From the NCBI GenBank assembly GCA_964529095.1, contig CAZGVK010000093.1, positions 1 through 57,945 of the forward strand: 57,945 bases of DNA. Reading direction: 5' to 3'. Position numbers and translations under genes: made by a program. Origin of the DNA: an uncultured Elusimicrobia bacterium. GTDB taxonomy: Bacteria > Elusimicrobiota > Elusimicrobia > UBA1565 > UBA9628. Below the pieces are notes generated by a model that did not search any database, was not told the origin of the DNA, and worked only from the letters and a program-made list of their open reading frames with translations. This document shows positions 1 through 44,884 of this stretch, piece by piece; the stretch's first letter is position 1, and the number at the start of each line of letters is the position of its first letter.

Positions 1-189
1 CAGTGTTCAGGAGACGCATATCGATCTGCCGGATTGGATGCAGTGAATCTATTTTCTTTTAGGCCCTTCGGCCCGCCGGACCTTCTCACAGCGCACGGCC
101 TTGTCGTCCTTGGGCAGGGCGAATGAACCGAGCCATAAGGGCGAGGCCGCTTTGCCAACGGATATTGGAAGCTGCATTTCCGCGCCCAT

Positions 190-294
190 GGCGCGGTCAG
201 AAGTGCCCCTTCCAAAATCCTAAAGAAATGGATCGAGCAACGCAGTTAGCGTGAAGCGTCGGCATCAAAACACATAGTTATTTTGCGCCAACCC
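190..294 (-). repeat. Intergenic repeat element, copy A (head GGTTGGCGCAA, about 105 nt)
   Basis: Read on the minus strand it begins directly after the TAA stop of the glycosyltransferase. It aligns by hand along its whole length with 43786..43891 on the plus strand. Single-nucleotide indels between the copies break every reading frame. Confidence 0.7.
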
Positions 295-1383
295 TTAGGA
301 AGCGTACAGCCGCGATAGATTTTCAAGCATGAGCTCGCGGGAGAATTTCCGCCGAACGCGCTCGCGCCCGGCGGCGCCGAGCTTGCGGCGGAGGGCCGTA
401 TCGTCAATAAGTTGCTGGCAACGCTCAAGCAACTCCATCTCGCTCTTGACGATAAACCCGGTGACGCCGTCTTCGATGGCGTCGCGATTGCCCGTATTGT
501 CGGAGGCAACGACGGGCAATCCGGCGGCCATGGCCTCAAGGACCGCGTTGGGCAGAGCGTCCCAGCGCGAGTAGTGGACAAACAAATCCAGAGCGCGCAT
601 GCGCTCACGCGCCTGCTCCGCCGTCAGCCAGCCGGTGAGCTCCACGCGGCCGGAGAGATTCATATTTTCGATGTGAGTTCGTATGCGCGGTTCGTCTTCG
701 CCACCGCCGATCCAGACGCAATTGATCCCGTTGCGCGAGTCGCTGAGACGCTGGGTGAGGAGAATCCAGGCGTCTGAATTGCGCGCGTAGGTCAGGCGCC
801 CGCAGGAACCGACGGCGAGGCCGTCGTGCGGCAGCGGTTCGCTGAAATTGCCGAGGTAAGCGTCGCAGATCGTGTGCACGAGGCCGCCGCCCAGAGCCGC
901 GGCGATAACGGCCTCTCCGGGAGCGCAGGCGATCGTCGTGCCCAGGTGCGAGGCGGCCTTCTCTATGGTCTTGTACAGGAAACGCATGGCCGCTGATCGG
1001 TCCTGCTGAAGAAAGCCGTAGCCGTGAGGTGTGTAGAACACGGTCTTGATGCCCGCCGCTTTGGCGGCGGCACGCGCGAGCGCCCCCGCTTTTGATGAGT
1101 GCGCGTGCACGATGTCGGGCTGGAGTTCAATAAAGAGTTTTTGGAGCTTGCGCATCGCGCCGAGGTCATTCATCAAGCTTATCTCGCGCATCATCTCCGG
1201 CACGAAGTAGGCGGTCTTAGCGCCGACGCACTTCGCGCGGTACTCCTCCGGCGAGCCCTCGCGCACGGCATAAACCAAAGTGACCTCAAAGCGCGAGGGA
1301 TCGAGGCCGTTACAGATTGCGGCCACCTGCTCGCCCGTGCCGCCGGGACCTCCGCACTCGACGACTTGTAATATTTTTCGCAT
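295..1383 (-). CDS. GT-B fold glycosyltransferase (GT4/GT1-like)
   Basis: Track ORF 295..1422 trimmed to ATG 1383, the first ATG after the upstream stop at 1392. The C-terminal stretch NAVLEAMAAGLPVVASDNTGNRDAIEDGVTGF is the typical GT4 nucleotide-sugar binding region. Confidence 0.8.
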   Translation of the reverse strand: MRKILQVVECGGPGGTGEQVAAICNGLDPSRFEVTLVYAVREGSPEEYRAKCVGAKTAYFVPEMMREISLMNDLGAMRKLQKLFIELQPDIVHAHSSKAGALARAAAKAAGIKTVFYTPHGYGFLQQDRSAAMRFLYKTIEKAASHLGTTIACAPGEAVIAAALGGGLVHTICDAYLGNFSEPLPHDGLAVGSCGRLTYARNSDAWILLTQRLSDSRNGINCVWIGGGEDEPRIRTHIENMNLSGRVELTGWLTAEQARERMRALDLFVHYSRWDALPNAVLEAMAAGLPVVASDNTGNRDAIEDGVTGFIVKSEMELLERCQQLIDDTALRRKLGAAGRERVRRKFSRELMLENLSRLYAS

Positions 1384-9090: not shown

Positions 9091-9519
9091 TCACGCCTTC
9101 TGCATCGTCACGGTTAAGTATCGGGCAATCAGCCTTAAATCGCCGGAATACCGGAGCGACTTCGCCGCCGCTCTCTTGGCTACCCACTTCGTCTTCATGA
9201 TCTCGACTGCGTCTGAACGCCCCGTCTTCCTCAGCGCGACCATGCGATACCACTTAACTTTTTTAGCCACGGAGCGGCCGTTGCGATTAAAACGATAACG
9301 AATCAAGGCAAGCGGTCCGCTGCTCCGGCAACGCCAACCGGTCTCCTCCTCCACCTCGCGCAGCGCCGCTTGAAGCGGCGTCTCGCTCTTTTCTAAGTGA
9401 CCTTTTGGGAATGTCCAAACGATCTCGCCCTGAAGATTTATTATTTGCACAAGCAGAATTTTTCCGTTCCTTTCGACGATCCCGCCAGCGGCGTACTCTT
9501 TAGCTTCTTGCATTCCCAA
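9091..9519 (-). CDS. NUDIX hydrolase
   Basis: 142 aa with a Nudix box (GHLEKSETPLQAALREVEEETG). Confidence 0.8.
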   Translation of the reverse strand: MGMQEAKEYAAGGIVERNGKILLVQIINLQGEIVWTFPKGHLEKSETPLQAALREVEEETGWRCRSSGPLALIRYRFNRNGRSVAKKVKWYRMVALRKTGRSDAVEIMKTKWVAKRAAAKSLRYSGDLRLIARYLTVTMQKA

Positions 9520-10034
9520 GTCCTGCTCCGAACCAGCGGGCTATCGCAGCAGCGATAGGTTCGGATGCGTGCCCATCGCCGTAAGGATTTCGGCCCATCC
9601 TCCGTCGAAAGGAGGCATTCGTCAACAAGCGCGTTGTCCAAAATTCAAGACGGCGGGGCTCAAGGCCGACAAGCAGGCTCGCGCCGCAGGCCATGCTTTC
9701 GGTCCGCTCTGTTTTCCTGCGGACGATCAAGACTGGTTTGCCCAAGCTTACCGCCTCCTCCTGTAGTCCACCGGAATCCGTGATGACAAAAAGAGACCGC
9801 CGTAGTATGGCCAAAAACTCCGCATAAGGCTGCGGCGTCAGAAGACGGATGCGTGGATGCCGCAAGAGTCTTCGTGCCATTTTCGACACGACCGGATTAG
9901 GATGAACGGGATAGACGAAATTAAGATCAACATGCTTCTCTAAGAGCCTGATTAAGGCCGCGCAGATTTTGGCGGCGCAACGCCGCCACGACGGGGACAA
10001 GTTTAATGGCCTCGGGCCGCGTGCCCATGACCAC
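9500..10034 (-). pseudogene. wecB: UDP-N-acetylglucosamine 2-epimerase remnant with an internal deletion and frameshift
   Basis: The C-terminal half is intact in one frame (FVYPVHPNP...ITDSGGLQEE...NPYGDGHAS). The extreme N-terminus (VVMGTRPEAIKLVPVVAALRRQ) sits in another frame at 10034..9970. About 170-180 codons that normally lie between them are missing. Confidence 0.75.
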
Positions 10035-10042
10035 CAGTATTT

Positions 10043-11095
10043 TTACTTGCGGGCTTTGCACAGTTTACAGCTGAGGAAGGTCCAGGCGATGAGCTTGTAT
10101 AAAAGCCGCATGCCGACGTTGGCGTCCCATTCGTCCTTGACTTCGGGACCAGGGGAGACTTCGTTGAGGTCAAAGCCGATGATCTTTCTTCCCGAGCGCG
10201 CGACGAGTTCGATGAGGTGCGCGGCCTCCGCGAACTCGAGGCCGCCGGGGACGGGCGTGCCCGTATGAGGACAAAGTTTGGGATCGAGGCCGTCGATGTC
10301 GAAGGTGATCCAGACCTGTTGAGGCAAGGAGTCGACGATCCTTCCGGCGGTTTTTGTCCAGGGCTCTCCGGCGAAGCGGAAGCGGCCGAGGTCTCCGTCG
10401 TTGAATATTTTCGCGCGCTCCCCCAGGGCGCGCGCGTATTCATTCTCCTGTTCGCAGAAGTCGCGAATGCCGACCGAGGTGATCCGTATGATCTGGGGAA
10501 TGTTCTCCATCGCGTTATACATGATGGAGGCATGCGACCAAGTGAAGCCCTCGTAGGCGAGACGCATATCTAAATGAGCGTCGAAATGCAGCAGTCCGAA
10601 ATCGCCGTGTTTCTCCGCTGCGGCGCGAAAGGCCCCATAGGGGACGCTGTGATCGCCGCCGACAATGCCCGCGATCTTTCCCGCGTCCAGGAGGCTTTTG
10701 ACTTCACGATAGACCCAGTCGTTCACCTTCGCGCCGAGTTCGTTCGTGATTTTCAACGCCTTCTCCAGATCCTTGCGTCCTTCGATTCGTCCTCCAGCCT
10801 TAATGACCTTTTGAGCCGCGGACTTTGCCGTCCTATTCCATGCGCGCACAATCGGCGATTGCGCGCGCATGAAGATTCCCGGCTCATAGGGCCGGTGCAC
10901 CTCTGCGTCGAATAGGTCGATTTGCCCGCTGGCGGCGCGGATAGCGGTTGGACCTTGCGCGGTGCCGCCGCCGTAGGAGGTCGTCGCTTCCCAGGGCACG
11001 GGAACTAGAACGAGGGCTGAGTTCTTTTCTTCGTAGGGCAAACCAAAGATGCCGGCACCTTTAGTGGGCGCGGAGTTGGGATCAAAGTTGAGCAT
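10043..11095 (-). CDS. Agmatinase/ureohydrolase family protein
   Basis: 350 aa with the arginase-fold metal motifs GGDHSV, DAHLDMR and TFDIDGLDP. Confidence 0.8.
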   Translation of the reverse strand: MLNFDPNSAPTKGAGIFGLPYEEKNSALVLVPVPWEATTSYGGGTAQGPTAIRAASGQIDLFDAEVHRPYEPGIFMRAQSPIVRAWNRTAKSAAQKVIKAGGRIEGRKDLEKALKITNELGAKVNDWVYREVKSLLDAGKIAGIVGGDHSVPYGAFRAAAEKHGDFGLLHFDAHLDMRLAYEGFTWSHASIMYNAMENIPQIIRITSVGIRDFCEQENEYARALGERAKIFNDGDLGRFRFAGEPWTKTAGRIVDSLPQQVWITFDIDGLDPKLCPHTGTPVPGGLEFAEAAHLIELVARSGRKIIGFDLNEVSPGPEVKDEWDANVGMRLLYKLIAWTFLSCKLCKARK

Positions 11096-18142: not shown

Positions 18143-20827
18143 ATGCACAATCAAGCCAAGGTCCACCAAGACGCGCCATCTTCCGCGCTTCTTGATTTTT
18201 TTCTGCCGCTGCACAACGCTTTTGAGCCTCGCCGCCGTCTCCTGCTTGACGCGCGCCGGCGATCTCTTGAAAATGCGCATGCGGGCGTGCTGCCAGGCTA
18301 TCTTCCGGCGTCAGAGGCGACTGCTGGAAAATGGCGCTTGGCGGTGCCCTCATGGGCGCAAGACCAGCGCAACCAGATTACCGGCCCAGCCGACAACGCC
18401 AAGCTTCTTGTCGCGATGTGCAATACCCAAGATCCCGGCTGCATGCCCGACGGCGAGGACTCGATTACGGATGATTGGGATCATGTGAGGACGGCCCATC
18501 GCAATACGGTCGCCGCGATCAAGGGCACCTTGACCTTTACCGACGCTTCCGGCAAGAGGGTGGCAATTAAGCCCTCACGCCAGGTCATGTTTTACCGACC
18601 CCGCGGCCTTCACCTGCATGAGACCAACCTGGTCGCCGTTGGCGCCGTCTCCGCGTCGCTGTTCGATCTTGCCGCTGTTTTTTTCGAAACCGCGGACAAG
18701 CGCCGCGAGGCCGCAAAAAAGGCGGAGCGGCAGGCCAAGCTGTGCTTCTATATTCCCAAAACGGAGTCGTTTGAAGAGGCGGCCTGGTTTTCCGACATGA
18801 TTGCGGCGATGGAAACGGCTATCGGCATCCCTGTCGGTACGACCAAAATAATGTTCCTGATTGAATCGCTTCCAGCGGCCCATCAGGTTGAGGAGATTTT
18901 ATTTGCGGCGCGCCGCCACGCTATCGGTCTCAACCTCGGTCGTTGGGACTACATGGCGAGCATTCTTCATTTCAAGCTGGCCGATCCGGATTGGATTCTT
19001 CCCGACCGCAACACCATACCCCACGACATTCCTTTTTTCCAGAACATAAGAAAGCGAATCGTGGACGCTTGCCATCGGCGAGGGGCGCTCGCCATCGGCG
19101 GCATGAGCGCGTTGTTCCCGGATCGCACGAATGCGGAAGTCAACGCGCGTGCGCAGGAACGGCTTATCGCCGACAAGAAGAACGAGTCTCAAATTGGCTT
19201 TGACGGCGCTTGGACGGGTCATCCCGATCAACACAAGGGTGCCATTTCCCAGTTTCCCCTCCCCAATCAACTCTCAATCAAGCACGCAAAGGCCAAGCGC
19301 CTCGACCTCACGCCCTCGCCTGTCGGCGTCGGTGCGATCACTGTTGCCGGCACGCGCGATGCGATTCGGACCTGCATCGAATACCGTTTCGGCGTACTCT
19401 CGGGCCTTGGCGCGCGCCTGATCAAGGGCTACGACAAGACCGGCGCTTTGATCGGCAATTTCATGGAGGACTTGGCGACCGACCGAATCTACCGTCTCAT
19501 GATTGCCCAGCGCGTTCGCCACGGCGTCGTGACGGCCGAGGGCGTGAAGATATCGTCTGAGCTCGTGGATGCTTGGTTCGATGAGGAACTCCGGAATATT
19601 TTGGCTGCGAATTCAGGAGCCGCTTCGGCGGATCAATACAAGCAAGCCAGCGTGTGGAGCCAGCAAATGATCAAGCAAACAGCCGCGCCTAAACCCGTAG
19701 GAATTAAAACCTGGAAGTATCCCGCCGCCGAATTCGCGAAGATGTATGCGCCTGCCGAGAAGGGACATCCCGCCGACAAACTGCGCGCGCTTCTAAAGAA
19801 AAAATCAGCCAACCGCTTTAAAAATCCGGCGCAGTCCTTCCTGCACACTGCGGGCGCTTACGATGCGATAACCGCCTCGTTGCTCACGGATCTCGGCTTT
19901 GAGGCAATCTACGCCAGCGGCTGGCAGTTGGCCGTCGCCCACAACATGTATCCCGATATCGGCATCTACCCGTCGCATCAGATGGTCGATCTGGCGCGTG
20001 AACTCGTGCGCGGCATTGAGGGCACCCGCGACCGTCACTTTTATGATGATGACGGAAAAGTTCTCAATACGCCGCCGATCTTCGCCGACATCGAGGCTGG
20101 GTTCGGCGGACCGACCCAAACATTTACGCTGACGCGCGAGTTGATCCGCGCGGGCGTGGGCGGCGTTCACCTTGAAGATCAGGATCCGGCGGAGCGCACG
20201 TGCGGCCACATCGTGGCGCACCACGGCGTCAAGCGCGAGAAGGTTCTCGTGCCGACCAATAAGTGGATCGAGAAGCTCATCGCGGTGAAGGCTGCGGCAC
20301 AGGCTGCCGAAACGAACCTGGTCGTGATCGCGCGCACCGATGCAGTCGACGGCGCGGTCCCTGGCGGTCGGACCGGCAGTGTCGCGCACGCGATCGACCG
20401 CGCGCTTGAGGCGGCTTCGCTCGGCGTTGACGTGATCTGGCCTGAGTTCAACAACACCGATATCGAGGGGCCGCAGGAGTTTGCCGAGGGTGTGCATAAA
20501 TATTATCCGAACCAGATACTCGGATTCAACCTCTCTCCTTCGTTGCACTGGGGCAAGGCCAAGAAGGACGGCGTTTTAATCACCAATGAGATGTTGGGAA
20601 AAATAGGCTTTACGCTCCAGTTCTCGACCTTGCTCGCCTTTCGCACGATCGGCATGGCGCTGGAAAGTTCCCTGAAAAGCTTCCGCGAGCGCGGCATTGA
20701 CGCGCTCGCAGACCTGCAGATTTCAGAGATCGCTCAACCCAACGGCGAGCCGCGTACCCGCATGCACCAGAAGTTCGCCGGCACCAACCGCTGGCTCACG
20801 CTCGAGAAAGTCAGCAGGGGCGCATGA
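18143..20827 (+). CDS. Bifunctional malate synthase (N-terminal, A-type) and isocitrate lyase (C-terminal) fusion
   Basis: 894 aa. The N-terminal 520 aa or so carry malate synthase A features (ITGPAD, PDGEDS, GGMSALFP, FDGAWTGHPDQ). The C-terminal 335 aa or so carry ICL features (SGWQ, YPD..IYP, ADIEAGFGG, LEDQ...CGH, VLVPT, ARTDA, NLSPSLHW, LQFSTL). Confidence 0.85.
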   Translation: MHNQAKVHQDAPSSALLDFFLPLHNAFEPRRRLLLDARRRSLENAHAGVLPGYLPASEATAGKWRLAVPSWAQDQRNQITGPADNAKLLVAMCNTQDPGCMPDGEDSITDDWDHVRTAHRNTVAAIKGTLTFTDASGKRVAIKPSRQVMFYRPRGLHLHETNLVAVGAVSASLFDLAAVFFETADKRREAAKKAERQAKLCFYIPKTESFEEAAWFSDMIAAMETAIGIPVGTTKIMFLIESLPAAHQVEEILFAARRHAIGLNLGRWDYMASILHFKLADPDWILPDRNTIPHDIPFFQNIRKRIVDACHRRGALAIGGMSALFPDRTNAEVNARAQERLIADKKNESQIGFDGAWTGHPDQHKGAISQFPLPNQLSIKHAKAKRLDLTPSPVGVGAITVAGTRDAIRTCIEYRFGVLSGLGARLIKGYDKTGALIGNFMEDLATDRIYRLMIAQRVRHGVVTAEGVKISSELVDAWFDEELRNILAANSGAASADQYKQASVWSQQMIKQTAAPKPVGIKTWKYPAAEFAKMYAPAEKGHPADKLRALLKKKSANRFKNPAQSFLHTAGAYDAITASLLTDLGFEAIYASGWQLAVAHNMYPDIGIYPSHQMVDLARELVRGIEGTRDRHFYDDDGKVLNTPPIFADIEAGFGGPTQTFTLTRELIRAGVGGVHLEDQDPAERTCGHIVAHHGVKREKVLVPTNKWIEKLIAVKAAAQAAETNLVVIARTDAVDGAVPGGRTGSVAHAIDRALEAASLGVDVIWPEFNNTDIEGPQEFAEGVHKYYPNQILGFNLSPSLHWGKAKKDGVLITNEMLGKIGFTLQFSTLLAFRTIGMALESSLKSFRERGIDALADLQISEIAQPNGEPRTRMHQKFAGTNRWLTLEKVSRGA

Positions 20828-21683: not shown

Positions 21684-21689
21684 AATTTC

Positions 21690-22045
21690 AGGGACGGCCG
21701 GAGGGCCGCTGGTCCGCAAGGACGGGAGGAACTTCCGGACTCCGTAGAGCGTGATGCCCGTTGAAAGGCGGGGAGGCGGGGCCCATAAGCCCCGTCGACG
21801 GAAAGTACCACAGAAAATAACCGCCCTCGCGTGAGGGTAAGGGTGAAAAGGTGGGGTAAGAGCCCACCGCGGCCGCCGCGAGGCGTCCGGCAACGGTAAA
21901 CCCCGTCGGGAGCAAGGCAGTGGGGCGGAGGGCGCTGCTCGCGCCAGAACTCGCGCAAGCGAGTCGCGGCCGCCCGGTAGCCGCTGAGAGAAATGGTCCT
22001 CGAGCCCGCAAGGGTGGACAGAATCCGGGGTACAGGCCGTCCCTG
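21690..22045 (+). ncRNA. rnpB: RNase P RNA, bacterial type A
   Basis: Conserved blocks read directly: GGUAAGGGUGAAAAGGUGGGGUAAGAGCCCACCGCG, CCACAGAAAAUAACCGCC, GGUAAACCCC..GGGAGCAAGGC and GGACAGAAUCCGGGGUAC. The P1 termini pair (GGGACGGCC / GGCCGUCCC). The overlapping track ORFs are artefacts. Confidence 0.9.
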
Positions 22046-22057
22046 ATTAAAATCAAG

Positions 22058-22087
22058 GAAGCGGGTCCGCGAGAGCGGGCCCGCTTC
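22058..22087 (+). terminator. Stable 13-bp stem with a GAGA tetraloop just downstream of rnpB
   Basis: gaagcgggtccgc-gaga-gcgggcccgcttc, with one G-U pair. There is no U-tract after it, so it may be a processing or stability hairpin rather than an intrinsic terminator. Confidence 0.45.
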
Positions 22088-22116
22088 TGCCTGCGCGATG
22101 ATGTAAAATCCACTTC

Positions 22117-29481: not shown

Positions 29482-30630
29482 TTATTTGTTTGCGCTCAAT
29501 TCGGCCGCCTCGACAAGCTTGGACAAGCGCGCGAAAACGACATCCTCGTCATGCGCGTGCGCCTTGACGATGCGCGCGCGGCGCGCATCGTCAGAGTCCA
29601 TGGACCCGGCCGCGGCGATCCACTCGGCGGGCGTGCGGCAGATCGTCAGGAGCGAAGACAATCCCGAAAGCGCAGGCAAGGGGCTGGCCAATACCAGACG
29701 GCCCGTCGCCAAGCATTCGTAGGTCTTGGCCGGTATGACGCCGCGATTATACGCATCGTCAACATACGGCAGAAGCAAGGCGTCCATTCCAGAGAGCAAG
29801 GCCGGCAAGTCTTCGTGGGGGCAAGGGCCGCGCAATGCGACTGACGGAGGCAACGGCGGCGGCGGTTCCTTAATCGGGCCGATGAGTTCAACCTCAAAAC
29901 CGGCCTCCGCCAGCGCTCGTATGGGCGCGTAGTCAATCGCCCGCCATAAAGTCCCGAAGTAGCAAAGACGCCGCCGTCGTCGGCTCGGCGGCGGGGGAAT
30001 AAAGAACGCGGGGCTTACGCCATGATGCAGTTCAAAGACGTTATGATGCAGCGGCTTCTTCTCTTCGTACAGCGTATGCGAGGTCGTCAGCACGAGACCG
30101 GCGCGCGCCATCAGCGCGGCCTCGGTCTGAGCCAGATCCGGGGGCGAGGAAAGCAGGCCGTAGAAATTGTCTACGCAGTCATAGACGACAAGCGCCGGCT
30201 TAAGCTGGTCAAGCATATCCAGAGTCGTCGACGTTGGAAGATAGGCGAAGACCACGGGGTTCTGCCGCATGCCGCGATTATAAAGGATGCTGACGAGGCG
30301 TGGCGCCAGCAGGGACGCGTTGGCCTTGCGAAACAGCCGGCGCGTGGGCGGCAGAACGAGCGGGCTGACGACGACAATCCCCTGAGGCGCGCGTACGCGG
30401 CGAGAATGTTCGCCGCGCAGACTGCGGAGGAGGCGGCGCCAGATGCGCCCCATCTCGCTTAGACGCGGCTCGCGAAAGCCGGTGTTCTCGACAAAAAAGA
30501 CGCGATGCCCGGCGCGCGCCCACTGCGCGGCGAAAGCGTGATGGCGCTGCCGGGCCGCATCCCAATCAACGCTTGAAAGAATGACGACGTCGCCGCGCTG
30601 ATCGCTCACAGGACGCTTATGATACAGCAA
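29482..30630 (-). CDS. Glycosyltransferase (GT1/TuaH-like), last gene of the polysaccharide operon
   Basis: 382 aa with a TTG start at 30630. Its 5' end lies inside direct-repeat copy 1. GT-B-like C-terminal half. Confidence 0.75.
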   Translation of the reverse strand: MLYHKRPVSDQRGDVVILSSVDWDAARQRHHAFAAQWARAGHRVFFVENTGFREPRLSEMGRIWRRLLRSLRGEHSRRVRAPQGIVVVSPLVLPPTRRLFRKANASLLAPRLVSILYNRGMRQNPVVFAYLPTSTTLDMLDQLKPALVVYDCVDNFYGLLSSPPDLAQTEAALMARAGLVLTTSHTLYEEKKPLHHNVFELHHGVSPAFFIPPPPSRRRRRLCYFGTLWRAIDYAPIRALAEAGFEVELIGPIKEPPPPLPPSVALRGPCPHEDLPALLSGMDALLLPYVDDAYNRGVIPAKTYECLATGRLVLASPLPALSGLSSLLTICRTPAEWIAAAGSMDSDDARRARIVKAHAHDEDVVFARLSKLVEAAELSANK

Positions 30631-30661
30631 AAATCGGCGTTGGCGTCCGAAACCTCAGCCG
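30591..30661. repeat. 71-bp direct repeat, copy 1 (left boundary of the insert)
   Basis: Identical to 33114..33184 except C30653 versus T33176. It contains the glycosyltransferase start and the upstream junction sequence. Confidence 0.95.
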
Positions 30662-30996
30662 ACCGGGCTGGGACCGACCCCTTGATTAATCCCAGGAGAG
30701 GGTCTATCCTGGGCCCGCGAGGGCGGCTGCGGCGGAAAGCGGGCTGATTTTGCCTAGCTTGTACCGGACGTAGATCGGGTTGGGGGTATGCGGCTCCGGT
30801 CAACTTTGTCAAAAATACTGTAGTTGCGCAGTCACTGATAGCGTTCATGGGGTAGCTGGAATAGAACGACGATGGATCATGCGGTCGGTAAATATGGCCG
30901 ACTTCTGGAAGGTAAGAAACCTCATGAACGTTCGCGTCTATTGAGGAGTTTGTTCAGTCAATCCAAAGCGAGGGTCTCGATTTCGAGTACGTCCCT

Positions 30997-31191
30997 ATGG
31001 GCAGCGGCACGACGCGCAAGGATTCCCTGGTCGTTGAAGTGGACACGCAGAACAAGGAAAAGGACCTCGACAAGCTCGATATCCCGCTGCCGAGAATCAC
31101 CCGCCGTTTTCACCGGGACTTCAAGGATCTCGACGCGCTCGACCCCATTTCGCTAAGTCCTTTGCGCGCGAGCGCATTCCTCGGTGCATGA
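30997..31191 (+). CDS. Orphan ORF or gene fragment inside the insert
   Basis: The open frame actually extends back to about 30928 (..IEEFVQSIQSEGLDFEYVPMGSGTT..), and a neighbouring frame continues upstream, suggesting a frameshifted remnant. It vaguely recalls helicase/restriction-subunit C-termini, but I cannot verify that. Confidence 0.25.
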   Translation: MGSGTTRKDSLVVEVDTQNKEKDLDKLDIPLPRITRRFHRDFKDLDALDPISLSPLRASAFLGA

Positions 31192-31227
31192 ACCAGTTCA
31201 GAATAGTCATATTTCGTTGCTTGTGAG

Positions 31228-31305
31228 GTCTAACGCCGAGGATGAACCGCGGGCGCTCTAAGGCCTTCATCATGAGCGCCCGGCGGCTCTATCCGATGGT
31301 TAGCC
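31228..31305 (-). repeat. attC-like recombination site 1
   Basis: Imperfect palindrome with GTCTAAC ... GTTAGCC ends, an unpaired spacer next to the end boxes, and a GC-rich inner stem (CCGC/GGGCGCTC). Two single-base bulges (G and T) both sit on the plus-strand 3' arm. It abuts the RelE/ParE-like stop at 31307. Confidence 0.6.
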
Positions 31306-31306
31306 C

Positions 31307-31582
31307 CTATAAATAGTGCTTCAAAAATTGCCGGACCTCGTTGTGATTGCCGACGAATAGGAATGTCACGGTCTGTTTATCCCACTGGAACAAGATGCGA
31401 GTGGCCAGGTCTATCCGAAATTCCCAGACCGATCCACCCATTTTTTTTATTCCAAAACCAACCGGAAGATTTCTTGCATCAAAGGCACGGACGAGTGCAT
31501 CAATATTCCTCTGAATTTCCATGCGTTCCGCCGGATGGCGGCGCCTAAGGATTCTTTCGAATCCTCCGCCGAGAAGGTACAT
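31307..31582 (-). CDS. RelE/ParE-superfamily type II toxin
   Basis: 91 aa, ATG at 31582. The pattern is GGSVWEFRIDLATRILFQWDKQTVTFLFVGNHNEV. It lies directly downstream of an RHH antitoxin gene. Confidence 0.75.
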   Translation of the reverse strand: MYLLGGGFERILRRRHPAERMEIQRNIDALVRAFDARNLPVGFGIKKMGGSVWEFRIDLATRILFQWDKQTVTFLFVGNHNEVRQFLKHYL

Positions 31583-31585
31583 CAA

Positions 31586-31819
31586 TCAAAGGCTCCAGAG
31601 ATGCTTAAGAAATGCTGCGGAGTTCTTAAATTTCCTGGTCCCCTTGCCTCGCTTCGCATCGGTCGCCATTCGCTTGATCTCACCATCCGCGAACCGTGAG
31701 GTATAGGAACTGTCGATGGCCTCTCTAACGAGCTGGGAATAGCTCTTCCCGGATTCAGCTGCCTCCCGGCGAAGGGCCAAAACCTCTTTCTTTTCTAGGA
31801 GAATCTGGACTCTAATCAT
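31586..31819 (-). CDS. Ribbon-helix-helix (CopG-like) antitoxin
   Basis: 77 aa. The N-terminal IRVQILLEKKEVLALRREAAESGKSYSQLVREAI is a typical RHH fold sequence. Confidence 0.75.
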   Translation of the reverse strand: MIRVQILLEKKEVLALRREAAESGKSYSQLVREAIDSSYTSRFADGEIKRMATDAKRGKGTRKFKNSAAFLKHLWSL

Positions 31820-31836
31820 ATTATACCCCTATATTG

Positions 31837-31865
31837 TGTATAACATGTGTAATTGCTCGTGTCAA
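31837..31865 (-). promoter_or_regulatory. Sigma70-like promoter for the RHH/RelE pair
   Basis: Minus strand reads TTGACA, 17 nt, TATACA. A TATAAT also lies just before the antitoxin ATG. Confidence 0.5.
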
Positions 31866-31869
31866 GAGG

Positions 31870-32031
31870 CTAATTTGCGGTGATTAGCCAGGCGAGCAGA
31901 AAGCCACTTAACTGATGCCAGCCCGTGAATGTAAATTTTAAAACCCTACTGCTAAGCACATATGTAATTGGGAAAAGAACGACCACACATGGCAGCGTGA
32001 AAGCAGCGATTAGGGAGAGAAAATAAGACAT
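31870..32031 (-). CDS. Small two-helix membrane protein (53 aa)
   Basis: Internal ATG preceded by AAGGAGGAA. MSYFLSLIAAFTLPCVVVLFPITYVL...LSGFLLAWLITAN gives two hydrophobic helices. It is in the same attC-delimited unit as the RHH/RelE pair. Confidence 0.4.
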   Translation of the reverse strand: MSYFLSLIAAFTLPCVVVLFPITYVLSSRVLKFTFTGWHQLSGFLLAWLITAN

Positions 32032-32069
32032 CTGCCGTTCCTCCTTGTCCGAAATATCATCGCAAATGC

Positions 32070-32112
32070 GCCTAACGCAGAGGCTGACCAGCGGCGGCTT
32101 CAATGGTTCGGC
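32070..32112 (-). repeat. Short or degenerate attC-like site 3
   Basis: GCCTAAC ... GTTCGGC ends share the AACGC.GAGG and ATGGTT flanks seen in the other two sites. At only 43 bp with a weak stem, it is below normal attC length. It abuts the BrnA stop. Confidence 0.35.
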
Positions 32113-32122
32113 CCGGGGGTGC

Positions 32123-32341
32123 CTATGCCGCCCATTTCAGTGCGAGCTTCTTGTGATGCGCTGCACAATCGCGCAGGTACAGGTTAATCAAGTTCTGATA
32201 TGGCATCCCAACCTCAGATGCCAGCTCTTTGAAATACAAAACAGTCGCCTTATCCAGCCGAATGGTAATGGGCTGCTTTAGGCGAGAGATGTACGGGTTC
32301 TTTACGCCCTTCATCTTTGAAAAATCATAGTGCGTTCTCAT
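32123..32341 (-). CDS. brnA: BrnA-family antitoxin
   Basis: 72 aa from MRTHYDFSKMKGVKNPY, with an RHH-like C-terminal part. GGGAGG lies in the end of the upstream toxin gene. Confidence 0.8.
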   Translation of the reverse strand: MRTHYDFSKMKGVKNPYISRLKQPITIRLDKATVLYFKELASEVGMPYQNLINLYLRDCAAHHKKLALKWAA

Positions 32342-32346
32342 ATGGG

Positions 32347-32631: not shown

Positions 32632-32637
32632 ACATAC

Positions 32638-32666
32638 AGTGTATGCACAGAAGTGAGAAAAGTCAA
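32638..32666 (-). promoter_or_regulatory. Sigma70-like promoter for brnTA
   Basis: Minus strand reads TTGACT, 17 nt, TACACT, ending 6 nt before the brnT ATG. Confidence 0.5.
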
Positions 32667-32702
32667 TCCCAATGCTGTTTCCGGGTTGTTTCTGGTTAGT
32701 GG

Positions 32703-32775
32703 GCCGAACGCTGAGGATCTCCAGCGCCCGCTATAAGGCCGTTCGGCGGGCGTCTGGAGAATCCCATGGTTAGAC
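32703..32775 (-). repeat. attC-like recombination site 2
   Basis: GCCGAAC ... GTTAGAC ends with a long inner stem (CTCCAG/CGCCCGC). Two single-base bulges again sit on the plus-strand 3' arm. The flank sequence is shared with site 1 (AACGCYGAGGAT ... ATGGTTAG). Confidence 0.55.
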
Positions 32776-39769: not shown

Positions 39770-41161
39770 ATGCGCATCGAGAAGGACTCGATGGGGGATG
39801 TTCCCGTCGCAGTCGACCGCTACTGGGGCGCGCAGACCGAGAGATCTTTGCGCCATTTTCAAGCTTGTGCCGGCCGCGACACGTTGACGCGTGAGATGAT
39901 CCGCGCGTTGGGCCTGCTGAAGAAAGCGGCGGCGCTTGCCAACGCCGATCTGGGCCTCCTGTCTCGGGATAAAGAGAAGCTGATCGCCGCCGCCGCTGAG
40001 GAGGTGATCGTCGGTGCTCTTGACGGGCACTTTCCCCTCGTCGTTTGGCAGACGGGTTCGGGCACGCAGTCGAACATGAATGCCAATGAGGTGATTGCCA
40101 ACCGGGCCATCGAGCTGGCTTCCGGCGTCATGGGCTCGAAGAATCCAATCCACCCTAACGACGATGTGAATAAATCGCAGTCGTCCAATGATGCCTTCCC
40201 CACGGCGATGCATATCGCCGCTGTCGAGACTTTGGTGCAGGAACTGATCCCCGCCGTGAAGGGTCTGAGCGATGTTCTGAAAAATAAAGCCGTTAAATTC
40301 GACAAGATCGTCAAGATCGGCCGCACGCACCTCATGGATGCGGTTCCGCTGACCCTCGGCCAGGAGATCGGCGGCTGGGCCGCGATGCTCGACGCGGATA
40401 TTTCACGCATCAACGCCGTTTTGCCCGGACTTTGCGAGCTTGCCCTGGGAGGCACAGCGGTGGGCACCGGACTCAATACCCACCCGGATTTCGACAAAAT
40501 AGCAGTACGGCATATTGCCAGACTGACGAACCTCCCATTTCTTCCCGCTCCGAATAAATTTGAAGCCCTCGCGGGACATGACGCGCTCGTCTTCGCGCAC
40601 GGCGCGCTCAAAACTCTCGCCTGCTCGATGAATAAGATCGCCAACGACGTCCGCTGGCTCGCCTCGGGTCCGCGCGCGGGGCTGGGAGAGTTGCGCATCC
40701 CGGAAAACGAACCAGGCTCTTCGATCATGCCCGGCAAGGTGAACCCTACGCAAAGCGAGGCGGTCACGATGATCTGCGCCCAGGTGCTCGGCAACGACGC
40801 CGCGATTAATATCGGCGGCGCCTCGGGGAACTTCGAGCTTAACGTCTTCAAGCCGATGATTATCCACAATTTCCTGCATTCGGCAAAACTCCTGGCGGCC
40901 GGCATCCGCGGCTTTACCGCGCACTGCGCTTCCGGCATTGAGGCCGATGAGAAGCGCATTGACGAGCTCATGCGCCGCAGCCTGATGCTTGTCACGGCGC
41001 TCAATGTTCATATCGGCTATGACGCCGCGGCGAAAATCGCCAAGGCCGCGCATTCCGAAGGCTTGACGCTTAGGGAGGCGGCTCTCAAGCTCAAACTCAT
41101 CACCGACCAGCAGTTCACCGACTGGATCAAGCCTGAAGAAATGACTCGTCCGGGGCTTTAG
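39770..41161 (+). CDS. fumC: Class II fumarate hydratase
   Basis: Start at MRIEKDSMG (the track ORF begins 12 nt earlier at a TTG). Contains the [16 protein letters not shown] signature. Confidence 0.95.
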
Positions 41162-41172
41162 GGTTGGCGCAA
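41162..41172 (+). repeat. Head-only copy of the GGTTGGCGCAA motif
   Basis: It directly follows the fumC TAG and lies 17 nt before the histidine kinase ATG. Confidence 0.5.
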
Positions 41173-41188
41173 TAATATTCTCCATCCC

Positions 41189-42888: not shown

Positions 42889-43675
42889 TCTCGGGGTCTT
42901 AGGCGCTATCGCCGCGCGTGCGATCGAGAGAATCGCCCGCGAAAAGACCCGGCGCTCCGTGGAGTCGTTGCGCGCTGAGCCGCTGTATGGACGCTCGCCG
43001 ATGTCGTTAGCCAAAGCGTTGTCATTTCCAGGTCCGCGCGTGATCGCGGAGGTTAAATTCACATCGCCATCCGAGGGGGTTTTGCGCCCCAATCCATCCT
43101 CAAGCGAGGCTTCTGAAATAGCGGCTTCTTATGTTTCCGCGGGAGCGGCCGCGATCTCAATCATAACGGAACCGGAATTCTTCGCCGGCGACGCGGCATT
43201 TCTCGCCGCCGCCCGCCGGAAGTGTTCGAACGTTCCTTTGTTGATGAAGGATTTTTTTGTGGATGAATATCAATTTGAAATAGCCCGTTCCGTCGGCGCG
43301 GACGCCATCCTCTTGATCGCGGCGCTCTTGGGCCCGAGACTTTCCGAGATGCATCAGTCCGCCCGGTTTTTGGGCCTTTCCGTATTGGTGGAAGTTCATG
43401 ACGAAAAAGAGGCGTTAGCGGCGATAGCGGCGGGGGCGGATATTATCGGCGTCAACAGCCGCGACCTGAGGACTCTTCGCGTCGATTTGTCCACCGCCCG
43501 TCGCTTGGCGCCGCTTGTCTGCCGCTCCGGAATCACCGCCGTGGCGGAAAGCGGCCTCAATTCCCGCGCCGATATCGATTCCTTGTTCTCTTTGGGCTAC
43601 AGTGGATTTTTGATCGGCTCTTCATTGATGAGGACGCCCGAACCCGGCGCCGCCCTGAAGATGCTCCTCGTTTAG
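42881..43675 (+). CDS. trpC: Indole-3-glycerol-phosphate synthase
   Basis: The track ORF is long only because its frame stays open inside trpD. I place the start at GTG 42881, overlapping the trpD end. Motifs are VIAEVKFTSPS, LLMKDFFVDEYQ and IGVNSRDL. Confidence 0.85.
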   Translation: MADLGVLGAIAARAIERIAREKTRRSVESLRAEPLYGRSPMSLAKALSFPGPRVIAEVKFTSPSEGVLRPNPSSSEASEIAASYVSAGAAAISIITEPEFFAGDAAFLAAARRKCSNVPLLMKDFFVDEYQFEIARSVGADAILLIAALLGPRLSEMHQSARFLGLSVLVEVHDEKEALAAIAAGADIIGVNSRDLRTLRVDLSTARRLAPLVCRSGITAVAESGLNSRADIDSLFSLGYSGFLIGSSLMRTPEPGAALKMLLV

Positions 43676-43785
43676 AGTTGGCGCAAGAACAGATCATGCA
43701 CCGCGCAGGACCGATGAGCATTCATGAGCGCGGCCTCAAGTGCTGGTGTACATGTGTACACTTGCGGAAGGACACAGTGAGTTGT
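43676..43785 (+). repeat. Intergenic repeat element, diverged copy C
   Basis: Starts right after the trpC TAG with AGTTGGCGCAAGAACA. It shares CCGATG.GC.TTCA and GGAAGG.ACAC blocks in the same order as copies A and B. It is directly followed by copy B, so the two are in tandem. Confidence 0.5.
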
Positions 43786-43891
43786 GGTTGGCGCAAAAAC
43801 AACCATCTGTTTTTGCATGCCGATGCTTCACTCTAACCGCGTTGCCCGATCCCTGTCTTTAGGATTTGGAAGGGGCACTTCTGACTGCGCC
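43786..43891 (+). repeat. Intergenic repeat element, copy B
   Basis: Aligns with 190..294 (minus strand) from GGTTGGCGCAAAA through GGAAGGGGCACTTCTGAC.GCGCC. It contains the hairpin GCAAAAACA-ACCATC-TGTTTTTGC. Confidence 0.7.
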
Positions 43892-43924
43892 CTGTTAGAG
43901 CATCGCCTCGCCATCGAAAAATCA

Positions 43925-44515
43925 TCAGTTCAGCGTCAGCGCCGCGGCCAGCAATTCTGCCGATTTGAGGGAGGCTGACAATCCGCAGCTGCGGCGTTGC
44001 TCTTTAATGCGCTCCCGCATTTTGGCGACATCATTCGTGCTCGCGAGCATATCCTTCTCCGCTTTGGTGAGATCCTTCACCTCATCAAAAAAACGTTCTT
44101 CCTGCCACGAAGAGATGAATCTCTGGTAAGTCTTATCATACGCGAGACCCAGAACAAACCTGGTGCAGCCATAACCGCCAACCATGCAGTGGATCTTTTG
44201 GAACAACTTCAGTATCTGCTGATCGGTGAGCTTGGCCGGATCTTTTAAGAGCGGGAAACCTGCCTGGATCTGGAGAGCGGCTTCATCTCTCATGGCCGAC
44301 GTGCCCCTCTTGACCTGTTCGCGCGCGTCGTCTAGAGTTTCTTTCTGAAAGCCCTCGGATTCTTCAAGGTTCAACAACTGGCTCCTTAAGCTCTTCAGCA
44401 GGTCGCGGCATTCCAAAGACATTTTCCAGTTCTCATCTTCACCCGCCCGCGCAACGACAGAAGCGCCCGCGCTTAAATAGAGACCGACAACCGCCAACAC
44501 CGTCAGGTAGCGCAT
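43925..44515 (-). CDS. Hypothetical secreted protein
   Basis: Start set at MRYLTVLAVVGLYLSAGASVVARA (signal peptide). No domain recognised. Confidence 0.5.
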   Translation of the reverse strand: MRYLTVLAVVGLYLSAGASVVARAGEDENWKMSLECRDLLKSLRSQLLNLEESEGFQKETLDDAREQVKRGTSAMRDEAALQIQAGFPLLKDPAKLTDQQILKLFQKIHCMVGGYGCTRFVLGLAYDKTYQRFISSWQEERFFDEVKDLTKAEKDMLASTNDVAKMRERIKEQRRSCGLSASLKSAELLAAALTLN

Positions 44516-44884
44516 GATTTTTTCTCCAGTCTTCAACGACTTCATTATTTTAATAGATTTCGGATTCCGCGCATCTGGGTCCAATGGGGCACGGAACGTC
44601 AGCCAATGGACCTGCTTGTTTTTGGGTCTTTGGGCCCTGGAGGAGAACGTCGCGCTGAGAATAATCATTTCACGCGAACGCTGTGGAACTTTTTCAAGAG
44701 GTCAATCGTCTATTGAGTGAGGGCGCAGGCTGCCCGAGGAGGATGAACCATGAAAAACGAGGAGACAGGCAGGGAAACGCGACGACTACTGGCGCGGCTC
44801 AGAAGACGGGAGGAGGCAGAAGCGACAGATGAGGCGCGCGATGAGGCGCAGATGGCGCTGCTGGCGCGGCATTTAGCGCGCGCC

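What the first reader, a model, noticed from the sequence alone, without database searches (positions are those of the whole stretch)
190..294. A conserved non-coding element of about 105 nt is present on opposite strands 43 kb apart
- **Full-length match:** the minus strand of 190-294 and the plus strand of 43786-43891 align along their whole length. The shared sequence is GGTTGGCGCAAAA, an A/U-rich hairpin, then ATGCCGA.GCTTCAC.CTAAC.GCGTTGC.CGATCC....CTTTAGGATTT(T)GGAAGGGGCACTTCTGAC.GCGCC.
- **Degree of identity:** by hand alignment, about nine in ten positions match over the 3' 75 nt or so.
- **Non-coding:** three or four single-nucleotide indels between the copies destroy any common reading frame, so conservation is at the nucleic-acid level.
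- **Possible structure:** the hairpin changes sequence but keeps pairing (GCAAAAACA/TGTTTTTGC versus CAAAATA/TGTTTTG). ATCC...GGAT and GAAG...CTTC stems are also kept. The 5' GGCGCA can pair with the 3' UGCGCC as a closing helix.
- **Not recognised:** I do not recognise it as any known riboswitch or sRNA. It could be a structured RNA (3'-UTR element or sRNA) or a miniature mobile repeat.
- **Context of copy A:** it starts right after a stop codon and ends at the ATG of a 46-codon ORF (49-189, minus strand).
Basis: seen in the sequence. Interest (0 to 1): 0.65.

Follow-up and report, generated by a model that had tools for sequence, protein, structure and literature searches.

The report
High-copy intergenic palindromic repeat, Elusimicrobiota
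The two matching 105-nt stretches are two members of a family of roughly 60-150 near-identical short non-coding repeats scattered through one uncultured Elusimicrobiota genome. It is a REP/MITE-like "selfish or domesticated" hairpin element whose first bases form the stop codon of the gene in front of it, and it is not a unique regulatory RNA.

Summary
Window 187-297(-) and 43782-43894(+) are 89% identical with 3 indel events (nhmmer E 2e-18).

It is not just a pair. Contigs from the two public runs that hold this genome pile up on the element at 280-735x word depth, against 4.6-10x on its flanks. Dozens of contigs carry different flanks at the genome's own depth, so there are tens to more than 100 copies.

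- **Known families:** there is no Rfam match.
- **Coding:** there is no coding signal. The copies differ by a frameshift and show 5 non-synonymous to 1 synonymous change. The 46-codon ORF has no homologue.
- **Relatives:** the element is absent from 61 kb of syntenic DNA of relatives (70-74% TrpC identity).
- **Assembly:** the contig breaks in or near repeats at both ends.
- **Anatomy:** a highly conserved 5' unit of about 55-60 nt forms one long imperfect palindrome. It runs T-W-A-G-R-G, then GTTGGCGCAAAAA...TTTTTGC..GCCGA, then GCTTCA-CTCTAAC (z -3 to -4.5). Variable 3' modules follow.
- **Stop codon:** the 5' TAA/TAG is the stop codon of the upstream gene, at the ancestral position, in 3 of 3 testable cases.
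- **Enzyme:** no transposase is visible in the 58 kb.

Verdict: this is a new family of a known kind, a REP/BIME- or MITE-like mosaic repeat. Its stop-codon-abutting geometry is unusual. How it moves (an HUH-type enzyme fits best) and what it does in RNA are inferred, not shown.

The parts
292..297 (-). Copy A, 5' terminus TAAGGG. TAA (295-297) is the stop codon of the glycosyltransferase gene 295..1383.
   Evidence: The same T-W-A-G-R-G precedes GTTGGCGC in the other assembled copies.
244..297 (-). Copy A, conserved 5' unit. It is a long imperfect palindrome: stop region, then GTTGGCGCAAAAUA, a loop, UGUUUUG-A-UGCCGAC, then GCUUCACGCUAAC.
   Evidence: RNA fold -23.5 kcal/mol with z -4.1, DNA fold z -3.2. 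The antisense strand folds only at z -1.3. This part has the highest repeat depth, 400-480x.
180..243 (-). Copy A, 3' half: GCGTTGC.CGATCC...TTTAGGATTTTGG, the GGAAG-GGGCA-CTTC hairpin, and the CCGCGCC-ATG-GGCGCGG hairpin (180-196).
   Evidence: Depth here is 100-280x, and the other copies are more diverged.
127..179 (-). Extra repeated module after copy A. It contains a degenerate second start, CGTTGGCAAAG, fused to CCTCGCCCTTATGGCTCGGT, which is the 3' hairpin of the dominant subfamily.
   Evidence: Depth is 71-146x (X1) and 17-26x (X2), against 6.5-7.4x further out. The dominant subfamily reads ...CACTTC|CTCGCCTTATGGCGCGGTCGTCGGTCACAC (5 contigs).
49..189 (-). 46-codon ORF, judged spurious.
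   Evidence: The only hit in 5.8 billion proteins is the window's own call. Its start lies in the hairpin loop of the repeat.
43782..43837 (+). Copy B, conserved 5' unit. It has a degenerate terminus TTGTGG (TTATGG in the X1/X2 contigs), a 15-bp stem-loop at 43787-43824, then GCTTCA-CTCTAAC.
   Evidence: z -3.1. Depth is 280-735x. A short form of the family ends right after CTCTAAC (loose ends behind 43836 in both runs).
43838..43924 (+). Copy B, 3' half and tail: CGCGTTGCCCGATCC...TTTAGGATTTGG, the GGAAG/CTTC hairpin, TGACTGCGCC, then the tail CTGTTAGAGCATCGCCTCGCCATCGAAAAATC. The tail abuts the stop (43925-43927) of the convergent gene.
   Evidence: The tail matches another copy seen as protein P0122 (ALLEYRLDIQNS, with a 16-codon gap in B) and one more X1 contig.
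43673..43781 (+). A second, low-copy element in tandem in front of copy B. It starts TAG-A-GTTGGCGCAAGAACA at the trpC stop codon and contains the palindrome GTGTACATGTGTACAC (43746-43761).
   Evidence: 15-nt direct repeat with the start of copy B at 93%. Depth is baseline. In relatives, trpF follows trpC at this place.
41159..41188 (+). Solo start motif: TAG + GGTTGGCGCAATAATATTCTCCATCCC. It is a 27-28-nt insert lying exactly between the fumC stop and the ATG of the histidine-kinase gene.
   Evidence: Relatives have CTCTAATGG, with stop and start overlapping, and the same protein ends. The motif GTTGGCGCAA occurs 4 times against 0.23 expected.

Best explanation
The two stretches are members of a lineage-specific, high-copy family of non-autonomous interspersed repeats in an uncultured Elusimicrobiota genome. 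The family is REP/BIME-like or MITE-like and has tens to more than 100 copies.

**Shown.**
- The family is multi-copy, sits at unrelated loci on both strands and is non-coding.
- It is mosaic. A very conserved 5' palindromic unit of about 55-60 nt starts T-W-A-G-R-G-TTGGCGC and ends CTCTAAC. Variable 3' modules follow, and truncated, tandem and 'solo' forms exist.
- It is absent from the syntenic sites of relatives.
- Where it follows a gene in the window, its first TAA/TAG serves as that gene's stop codon at the ancestral position.

**Inferred.**
- It spread as DNA, mobilised in trans by an enzyme encoded elsewhere in the genome. The anatomy fits a single-strand HUH/Y1 enzyme (IS200/IS605 TnpA or a RAYT-type enzyme) best. 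The element has strand-specific imperfect hairpins with G·T pairs, a conserved tetranucleotide at the hairpin foot or left flank, same-orientation tandems, no long terminal inverted repeats and no clear target duplication.
- It is co-transcribed with the upstream gene. A hairpin of -16 to -23 kcal/mol then starts 0-3 nt after the stop codon and partly includes it. By analogy with E. coli REPs lying less than 16 nt from a stop codon, it should affect termination, ribosome release or 3'-end stability of the upstream mRNA.
For: - **Copy number.** Depth on the element is 280-735x, against 4.6-10x on the flanks, in two independent runs. Between 19 and 40 contigs were laid per run. The contigs that carry unique flanks have the genome's own depth, 2.4-8.5x.
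- **Assembly breaks.** A Logan contig breaks at the end of copy A. The window is a whole contig with repeats near both ends.
- **Shared 5' junction.** TAAGGG/TAAGAG/TTAGAG + TTGGCGC is seen in at least 9 other assembled copies.
- **Third copy at protein level.** P0122 is the translation of another copy.
- **Palindrome.** Fold z is -3.1 to -4.5 on the sense strand and -1.3 to -1.4 on the antisense strand.
- **Matching arm-length variants.** Majority variants add an A to the 5' arm and a T to the 3' arm.
- **Relatives.** They lack the element in 61 kb. The FumC and TrpC C-termini have the same length as in relatives, and the insert lies exactly at the stop codon.
- **Not a known RNA.** No Rfam family matches, even at E<=10.
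- **Not coding.** The copies differ by a frameshift and show 5 non-synonymous to 1 synonymous change. The ORF is an orphan.
- **Definitions.** Those of REP and IS200/IS605 ends, and the effect of stop-proximal REPs, come from PMC6006769 and PMC12306157.
Against: - No transposase, RAYT or integrase is present among about 55 ORFs of the window.
- No empty or filled polymorphism was seen in the two runs (no joints).
- The nearest relatives are distant, so 'absent in relatives' does not date or prove insertion.
- Only two full copies could be read. The others are known from 30-nt loose ends, one translated ORF and depth tables, so boundaries and subfamilies are partly reconstructed.
- The canonical REP tetranucleotide GT[AG]G is replaced by AG[AG]G or TWAG.
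- In IS608-type ends the guide lies between the cleavage site and the hairpin, and there is no room for that here.
- Random insertion at TWAG followed by purifying selection would put only about 10% of copies at stop codons (9 of 84 harmless sites). Something else, either target choice or selection for function, must therefore explain the stop-codon position.
- There are no transcription data.
Confidence: 0.75

Rival explanations
1. A family of functional structured RNAs. It would be either a cis-acting 3'-UTR element (terminator, stabiliser or translation-termination modulator) or a multi-copy sRNA, kept by selection at RNA level. Its spread would be secondary and mobility would not be its main feature.
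For: The structure is specific to the sense strand and uses G·U pairs. Both window copies have the orientation of the upstream gene. The stop codon lies inside or next to the outer stem. The 5' 60 nt is very highly conserved across copies, with few variants at 10% share or more. Stop-proximal REPs are reported to regulate translation in E. coli.
Against: There is no compensatory change between copies A and B. No Rfam family matches. No intrinsic-terminator pattern is present. Relatives at 70-74% TrpC identity lack the element. The truncated, solo, tandem and mosaic forms are typical of selfish repeats. One copy follows a hairpin rather than a gene end. No RNA run is available.
Confidence: 0.15
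2. Recombination sites of a site-specific recombinase. These would be attC-like cassette boundaries or sites of a Xer/integrase-type system, explaining both the position right after stop codons and the loss of trpF next to one of them.
For: The elements begin right at stop codons, as many attC sites do. GTTGGC resembles the core site GTTRRRY. A synteny break (trpC without trpF) lies exactly at a motif.
Against: The copies are dispersed among housekeeping genes on both strands and do not form a one-orientation array. GTTGGCG fails GTTRRRY at two positions, and the orientation relative to the ORF is the reverse of attC (read directly from the sequence). There is no integrase in the window.
Confidence: 0.05
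3. A repeated small protein-coding gene, the 22-codon ORF MP(T/M)LH..KGHF inside the element, or the leader and start of the 46-codon ORF.
For: An ATG-initiated frame is open in copy A (22 codons), copy B (53 codons) and P0122 (103 codons).
Against: A 1-nt indel changes the frame between A and B. Of the six substitutions in the shared 66 nt, only one is synonymous. The C-termini are unrelated. Only one such ORF exists in 5.8 billion proteins. The 46-codon ORF has no homologue.
Confidence: 0.03
4. A plain segmental duplication or an assembly artefact confined to this contig.
For: Only two copies are present in the window, and copy A lies 190 nt from the contig end.
Against: Independent Logan contigs from two runs span both junctions. 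Dozens of other contigs carry the element with different flanks.
Confidence: 0.01

Closest known systems
REP elements and BIMEs (repetitive extragenic palindromes, bacterial interspersed mosaic elements) with their RAYT/TnpA_REP enzymes
   Same: It is a high-copy, extragenic, imperfect palindrome of REP size; the 5' unit is about 40-60 nt. A conserved tetranucleotide sits at the 5' foot of the hairpin. It has a mosaic or cluster organisation and lies at gene 3' ends. As with the subset of E. coli REPs lying less than 16 nt from a stop codon, it should meet the terminating ribosome.
   Different: The tetranucleotide is AG[AG]G or TWAG, not GT[AG]G. The upper stem is A/U-rich. The clusters are in direct rather than alternating orientation. 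The palindrome is followed by 50-150 nt of further conserved modules. The phylum is Elusimicrobiota. No RAYT was seen, though only 58 kb could be read.
IS200/IS605-derived non-autonomous elements (PATEs, palindrome-associated transposable elements)
   Same: There are no long terminal inverted repeats and no evident target duplication. The hairpins are subterminal and strand-specific. A conserved 4-6-nt sequence lies at the left junction. Insertions are tandem and same-orientation. An internal sequence (CTCTAAC) is complementary to the left-junction sequence, which recalls guide and target pairing.
   Different: The hairpin starts directly at the junction, leaving no room for a 5' guide. The left and right hairpins are unlike each other. 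No tnpA or tnpB was seen.
Bacterial MITEs (e.g. Correia/NEMIS, RUP, Nezha)
   Same: The element is 100-230 nt, non-coding, high in copy number and intergenic. It can fold into a long stem-loop and may be co-transcribed with neighbouring genes.
   Different: Only a 6-nt inverted repeat (TTAGAG/CTCTAA) bounds the 5' unit. No terminal inverted repeats were found at the ends of the long form, and no consistent target-site duplication.
MIRUs of mycobacteria (from my own knowledge: Supply et al. 1997)
   Same: They are short intergenic repeats whose ends overlap the stop codon of the upstream gene and the start codon of the downstream gene. The solo insert between fumC and the kinase gene fits this picture.
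   Different: MIRUs are tandem direct repeats with small ORFs that keep translational coupling. Here the unit is a palindrome, the copies are mostly single, and no frame is conserved.

Membership tests
REP / BIME | Imperfect palindrome of about 21-65 nt, present in many extragenic copies | tested here: met
   The stem-loop is 38-40 nt, or 55-60 nt with the outer stem, with z -3 to -4.5. Depth excess is 60-160-fold with many different flanks.
REP / BIME | Conserved 5' tetranucleotide GT[AG]G at the foot of the hairpin (PMC6006769) | tested here: not met
   The foot reads AGGG or AGAG, as part of T-W-A-G-R-G, in copy A and at least 9 other copies. Only copy B reads GTGG.
REP / BIME | A RAYT (TnpA_REP) gene flanked by REPs in the same genome | not testable with these tools
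   Only this 58-kb contig of the genome can be read, and none of its ORFs has a Y1/HUH or other transposase domain.
MITE | Terminal inverted repeats matching those of an IS | tested here: not met
   No terminal inverted repeats were found at the outer ends. There is only the 6-nt TTAGAG/CTCTAA pair around the 5' unit and a weak 28-nt, 71% internal inverted repeat in copy B.
MITE | Target-site duplication flanking each copy | tested here: inconclusive
   There is no duplication at the fumC/kinase insert when compared with relatives. TTAGAG occurs on both sides of the copy B cluster (43672-43677 and 43895-43900), but it is also the start motif of a module. The 3' ends of most copies are unknown.
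IS200/IS605-derived element (PATE) | Subterminal hairpins, insertion 3' of a fixed tetra- or pentanucleotide, no terminal inverted repeats or target duplication, mobilised by a Y1 TnpA | tested here: inconclusive
   The hairpins, the fixed left-junction sequence and the lack of terminal repeats and duplication are as expected. The spacing between junction and hairpin, and the unlike left and right hairpins, do not fit IS608. No tnpA could be looked for outside the window.
Integron attC site | R''/L''...L'/R' imperfect palindrome with RYYYAAC and GTTRRRY cores, in one-orientation cassette arrays next to intI | tested here: not met
   GTTGGCG does not fit GTTRRRY. The copies lie on both strands among housekeeping genes 43 kb apart, and there is no integrase.
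Any Rfam RNA family (riboswitch, sRNA, ribozyme, HEARO/omega RNA etc.) | Covariance-model score at or near the family threshold | tested here: not met
   Only RNase P reached the gathering score in the window. At E<=10, nothing overlaps either copy.
Intrinsic (Rho-independent) terminator | G+C-rich hairpin followed by a U tract | tested here: not met
   No terminator-like site was found in 1-600, and none overlaps copy B. The hairpin is followed by GCUUCAC.

The most novel reading that the evidence does not exclude
The family is a mobile element that targets stop codons. It inserts exactly at, and replaces, the native stop codon with its own 5'-terminal TAA/TAG. In both orientations the unit ends in TTAG or TAA. 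Target choice may work by pairing of the junction TTAGAG with the internal CTCTAAC. Each insertion would plant a stable hairpin that sequesters the stop codon, so one element family would retune translation termination or mRNA 3' ends at about 100 genes. Such a target specificity and genome-wide effect has not been described for REP, MITE or IS200-type elements.
Probability: 0.15. Interest if true: 0.65.

Novelty: new member of a known kind. Interest (0 to 1): 0.35.

Why it matters
Small dispersed repeats are well known in Proteobacteria, Firmicutes and cyanobacteria. I found no report for Elusimicrobiota, a phylum known almost only from metagenomes.

The family has two practical consequences. 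It fragments assemblies of this lineage, since the contig ends and Logan contig breaks coincide with repeats. It also generates spurious small ORFs, namely the 46-codon ORF and P0122.

Biologically, the interesting point is the geometry. A stable hairpin starts 0-3 nt after the stop codon and partly contains it, at the ancestral stop position, in many genes. If the position reflects target choice, it would be an unusual insertion specificity. If it reflects selection, it would be a natural genome-wide case of the stop-proximal REP effect on translation described in E. coli.

The finding is not a new class of regulatory RNA.

Tried and rejected
- **Collection scans.** Exact-pattern scans of GTDB genomes (21-mer) and JGI metagenomes (18-mer) returned only chance hits in unrelated or coding contexts. 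I spent both single-use scans on the 3' part, which later proved to be the variable part of the family. A scan of viral contigs with the 5' core found nothing.
- **Rfam.** Searches at gathering score and at E<=10 found nothing on the element.
- **Fishing for other copies through proteins.** The 46-codon ORF hit only itself. A profile of the element's open frame gave one hit, P0122. Its DNA could not be fetched and it carries no accession.
- **Relatives.** Nine loci (61 kb) around trpC homologues hold no copy by nhmmer --max or by motif search.
- **RNA evidence.** No RNA run holds the element, and only two DNA runs hold the genome.
- **Covariation.** Two sequences show no double changes, so the test has no power.
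- **Rejected ideas.**
  - sigma-54 or sigma-70 promoter in GTTGGCGCAA: no -12 TTGC, and no promoter-like site.
  - DGR template and variable repeat pair: the differences are not adenine-specific, and there are far more than 2 copies.
  - TA-duplicating IS630/mariner-type MITE: there is no TA at the right junctions.
  - A module boundary at the internal TTTAGGA: other copies remain homologous across it.

Full report

Yes. The minus strand of 180-300 and the plus strand of 43780-43900 align at 89% mean identity, with gaps at three places. The repeat finder lists the pair as its two longest inverted repeats. nhmmer gives E 2e-18 for copy A against copy B. The shared 18-mer and 29-mer each occur exactly twice, where shuffles give 0.04 and 0.00. 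Copy A follows the TAA of a GT4 glycosyltransferase gene (295..1383, minus). Copy B lies between the trpC-like gene (ends 43675, plus) and a convergent gene of unknown function (43925..44668, minus).

**2. It is not a pair but a high-copy family.**

The window is a whole 57,945-nt contig of an Elusimicrobiota MAG. Source names of the TrpC homologues give the phylum, and the closest homologue is only 74% identical. Two public metagenome runs (X1, X2) hold the genome. I laid their Logan contigs on the two loci at 80% likeness or more.

| Locus and run | Flank depth | Depth on the element |
|---|---|---|
| Copy B, X1 | 4.6 | 460-735 |
| Copy B, X2 | 8.2 | 280-487 |
| Copy A, X1 | 6.5-10.4 | 390-480 |
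| Copy A, X2 | 5.9-7.4 | 260-480 |

- Between 19 and 40 contigs per run lie on the element, and many of them fit it only in part.
- The contigs that join the element to a unique flank have depths of 2.4-8.5, the same as this genome. Short contigs of 49-96 nt, made of repeat only, have depths of 26-87.
- The simplest reading is roughly 60-150 copies in this genome or its close co-occurring strains. Two copies in 58 kb fits that density.
- The other end of the window carries two further repeat families, so the contig ends within about 130 nt of repeated DNA on both sides.

**3. Anatomy.**

The most conserved and most repeated part is the 5' 55-60 nt (copy B 43782-43837, copy A 297-244).

- **5' terminus.** Nine further assembled 5' junctions, read from loose ends, all show the same register: T-W-A-G-R-G-TTGGCGC. 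They read TAAGGG, TAAGAG or TTAGAG. Copy B has a degenerate TTGTGG, which reads TTATGG in the X1/X2 contigs.
- **Main stem.** GUUGGCG-CAAAA(A)yA pairs with UGUUUU(U)G-(A/AU)-UGCCGA. This gives 14-15 bp, several of them G·U, at -16 to -17 kcal/mol.
- **Outer stem.** The stem is followed by GCUUCA-CUCUAAC. CTCTAA is the reverse complement of TTAGAG, so the whole unit is one long imperfect palindrome.
- **Strand specificity.** As RNA the unit folds at -19 to -23.5 kcal/mol with z -3.1 to -4.5. As DNA on the sense strand z is -2.3 to -4.6, but on the antisense strand only -1.3 to -1.4.
- **Arm lengths.** Majority variants in the population add one A to the 5' arm and one T to the 3' arm. This keeps the arms matched, but the counts are pooled and are not linked within single copies.
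- **Short form.** At least one short form ends right after CTCTAAC, with loose ends behind 43836 in both runs. On the opposite strand the flank there reads as an open frame ending in the element's TAG.
- **3' part.** It is modular and more diverged. The segment GCGTTGC.CGATCC..TTTAGGATTT(T)GG and a GGAAG/CTTCC hairpin are widespread. After CACTTC, the dominant subfamily continues CTCGCCTTATGGCGCGGTCGTCGGTCACAC (5 contigs). Copies A and B share a rarer tail, TGACYGCGCC.
- **Copy A tail.** It then carries a CCGCGCC-ATG-GGCGCGG hairpin (180-196). A further repeated piece (179-127) looks like a degenerate start (CGTTGGCAAAG) fused to the dominant 3' hairpin.
- **Third copy as protein.** A 103-aa ORF from a 6.2-kb NCBI contig (P0122, MPMLHSNCVARSLSSEFLKGHFLALWLGRRSLPIGMLPSRALLEYRLDIQNS...) is the translation of another copy. 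Against it, copy B has a 16-codon gap and then matches again at 43887-43924. One more X1 contig confirms that tail. Copy B therefore runs to about 43924 and abuts the stop codon of the convergent gene.

**4. Solos, tandems and what relatives show.**

The 10-mer GTTGGCGCAA occurs four times in the window, against 0.23 expected. Two occurrences start copies A and B. The other two directly follow the stop codons of fumC (41159) and trpC (43673).

Relatives at 70-74% TrpC identity keep the order fumC, histidine kinase, trpD, trpC, trpF, csp.

- **fumC and kinase junction.** Relatives read CTCTAATGG, with stop and start overlapping. The window has TAG + 27 nt (GGTTGGCGCAATAATATTCTCCATCCC) + ATG, and the protein ends are unchanged.
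- **trpC.** The protein has the same length as in relatives, but trpF is gone. The stop is now TAG, followed by A-GTTGGCGCAAGAACA. This begins a 110-nt low-copy element with its own palindrome (43746-43761), and copy B follows in tandem. The two starts form a 15-nt direct repeat at 93%.
- **No copies elsewhere.** None of 61 kb of relatives' DNA holds a copy or the junction motif.

In all three window cases where the motif follows a gene, the element's TAA/TAG is therefore the gene's stop codon at the ancestral position. A census of TWAG sites in the window gives 324 in all, of which 9 lie at annotated stop codons and 75 are intergenic. Insertion at any harmless TWAG would thus hit a stop codon only about 10% of the time.

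One caveat applies. For copies known only from 30-nt flanks I cannot verify that a gene ends there, and one of them (c5) follows a hairpin with in-frame stops, not a gene end. T-W-A-G-R-G is therefore best seen as part of the element, or as its obligatory left flank.

**5. What it is not.**

- **Not a known RNA family.** Only RNase P (21690-22048) passes in the window, and nothing overlaps the copies even at E<=10.
- **Not an intrinsic terminator or a sigma-70 promoter**.
- **Not coding.** The ATG-initiated frame differs between A and B by a 1-nt indel, and only one of the six substitutions in the shared 66 nt is synonymous. The 46-codon ORF has no homologue and starts in a hairpin loop of the repeat.
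- **Not phage-borne,** as far as an exact core scan of viral contigs shows.
- **No covariation evidence.** With two full sequences there are zero compensatory double changes.
- **No RNA data.** No RNA run holds the element.

**6. Most likely mechanism.**

Shown: this is a non-coding, palindromic, mosaic, lineage-specific repeat family with tens to more than 100 copies. It sits at gene 3' ends, and its first bases act as the stop codon.

Inferred, part one: it multiplied as DNA through an enzyme supplied in trans. None of about 55 ORFs in the window has a transposase or integrase domain, so the enzyme, if it still exists, is encoded elsewhere. The features fit the single-strand HUH/Y1 world (IS200/IS605 TnpA, RAYT), as described in PMC6006769, better than a cut-and-paste MITE (definition in PMC3184786). 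These features are:
- no long terminal inverted repeats and no consistent target duplication;
- strand-specific imperfect hairpins;
- a fixed short sequence at the hairpin foot or left flank;
- an internal sequence complementary to that flank;
- tandem copies in the same orientation.

The fit is imperfect. The tetranucleotide is not GT[AG]G. There is no spacer for a 5' guide. The 5' and 3' hairpins differ from each other. I put about 0.3 on the HUH sub-claim.

Inferred, part two: when transcribed with the upstream gene, the hairpin starts 0-3 nt after the stop codon and its outer stem includes stop-codon bases. A ribosome must therefore open it in order to terminate. E. coli REPs less than 16 nt from a stop codon stall ribosomes and lower expression (Liang et al. 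2015, as summarised in PMC12306157). A similar effect, or 3'-end protection, is plausible here but untested.

**7. Comparison, novelty and score.**

The closest known kinds are REP/BIME elements, IS200/IS605-derived PATEs and bacterial MITEs. MIRUs share the stop and start overlap. One defining feature of canonical REPs (GT[AG]G) and one of MITEs (terminal inverted repeats) were tested and not met. I therefore file the element as a new family of the general kind 'small dispersed palindromic repeat', not as a member of either family.

I found no report of such repeats in Elusimicrobiota. That search covers only open-access full text.

The finding is ordinary in kind. The systematic abutment to stop codons is worth a look once the full genome is in hand, so I score interest at 0.35. 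The most novel reading not excluded is a stop-codon-targeting mobile element that rewires termination at about 100 genes. I put it at about 0.15.

**8. Limits.**

- Only two copies could be read in full.
- Copy number rests on k-mer depth of Logan contigs.
- The subfamily sequences are stitched from 30-nt loose ends and one translated ORF.
'Not found elsewhere' is therefore weak for the conserved 5' core.

Noticed in passing
window 57518-57556 and 57690-57875: Two other dispersed repeat families lie at the 3' end of the contig. Depth is about 45x and up to 142x, against a 4.5-13.6x baseline. The second includes a perfect 10-bp palindrome, GGGCTCACTC...GAGTGAGCCC (57822-57852). One other copy is preceded by ...GTTAAGA. 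The genome seems generally rich in short repeats.
   Followed up: partly
window 57674-57687: GGTGGCGCAAGAAC matches the start of the trpC-adjacent element (GTTGGCGCAAGAAC) at 13 of 14 positions. It lies near where the second repeat family's depth begins to rise. Different repeat families may share one 5' start motif.
   Followed up: no
window 30588-33184: A 74-nt direct repeat (97% identical; 30588-30661 and 33111-33184) brackets a 2.5-kb stretch without long ORFs. The stretch holds a BrnA/CopG-type antitoxin ORF (32123-32437). It looks like an integrated islet or a duplication-flanked insertion between two cell-envelope genes.
   Followed up: partly
window 43676-43924 versus L015-L019, L022, L023: trpF (PRAI), which overlaps the trpC stop codon in every relative examined, is missing after trpC here. 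A convergent gene of unknown function (43925-44668, no Pfam match) follows instead. The synteny break lies exactly at the repeat cluster.
   Followed up: partly
window 18143-20827 (+): A single 894-aa ORF combines malate synthase (TIM barrel plus C-terminal domain) and isocitrate lyase/PEP-mutase domains. It is a fused glyoxylate-shunt enzyme.
   Followed up: no
window 9500-10000 (-) and 10003-10533 (-): The UDP-GlcNAc 2-epimerase match covers only profile positions 201-346 of 347, in a 166-aa ORF. The upstream ORF in another frame has no Pfam hit. This may be a truncated or frameshifted gene.
   Followed up: no
window 21690-22048 (+): Bacterial RNase P RNA class A (181.9 bits, E 3.6e-57). The 141-codon ORF 21688-22113 on the opposite strand is therefore spurious.
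   Followed up: yes
window 43746-43761: A perfect 16-nt palindrome, GTGTACATGTGTACAC, lies inside the low-copy 110-nt element between the trpC stop and copy B.
   Followed up: no
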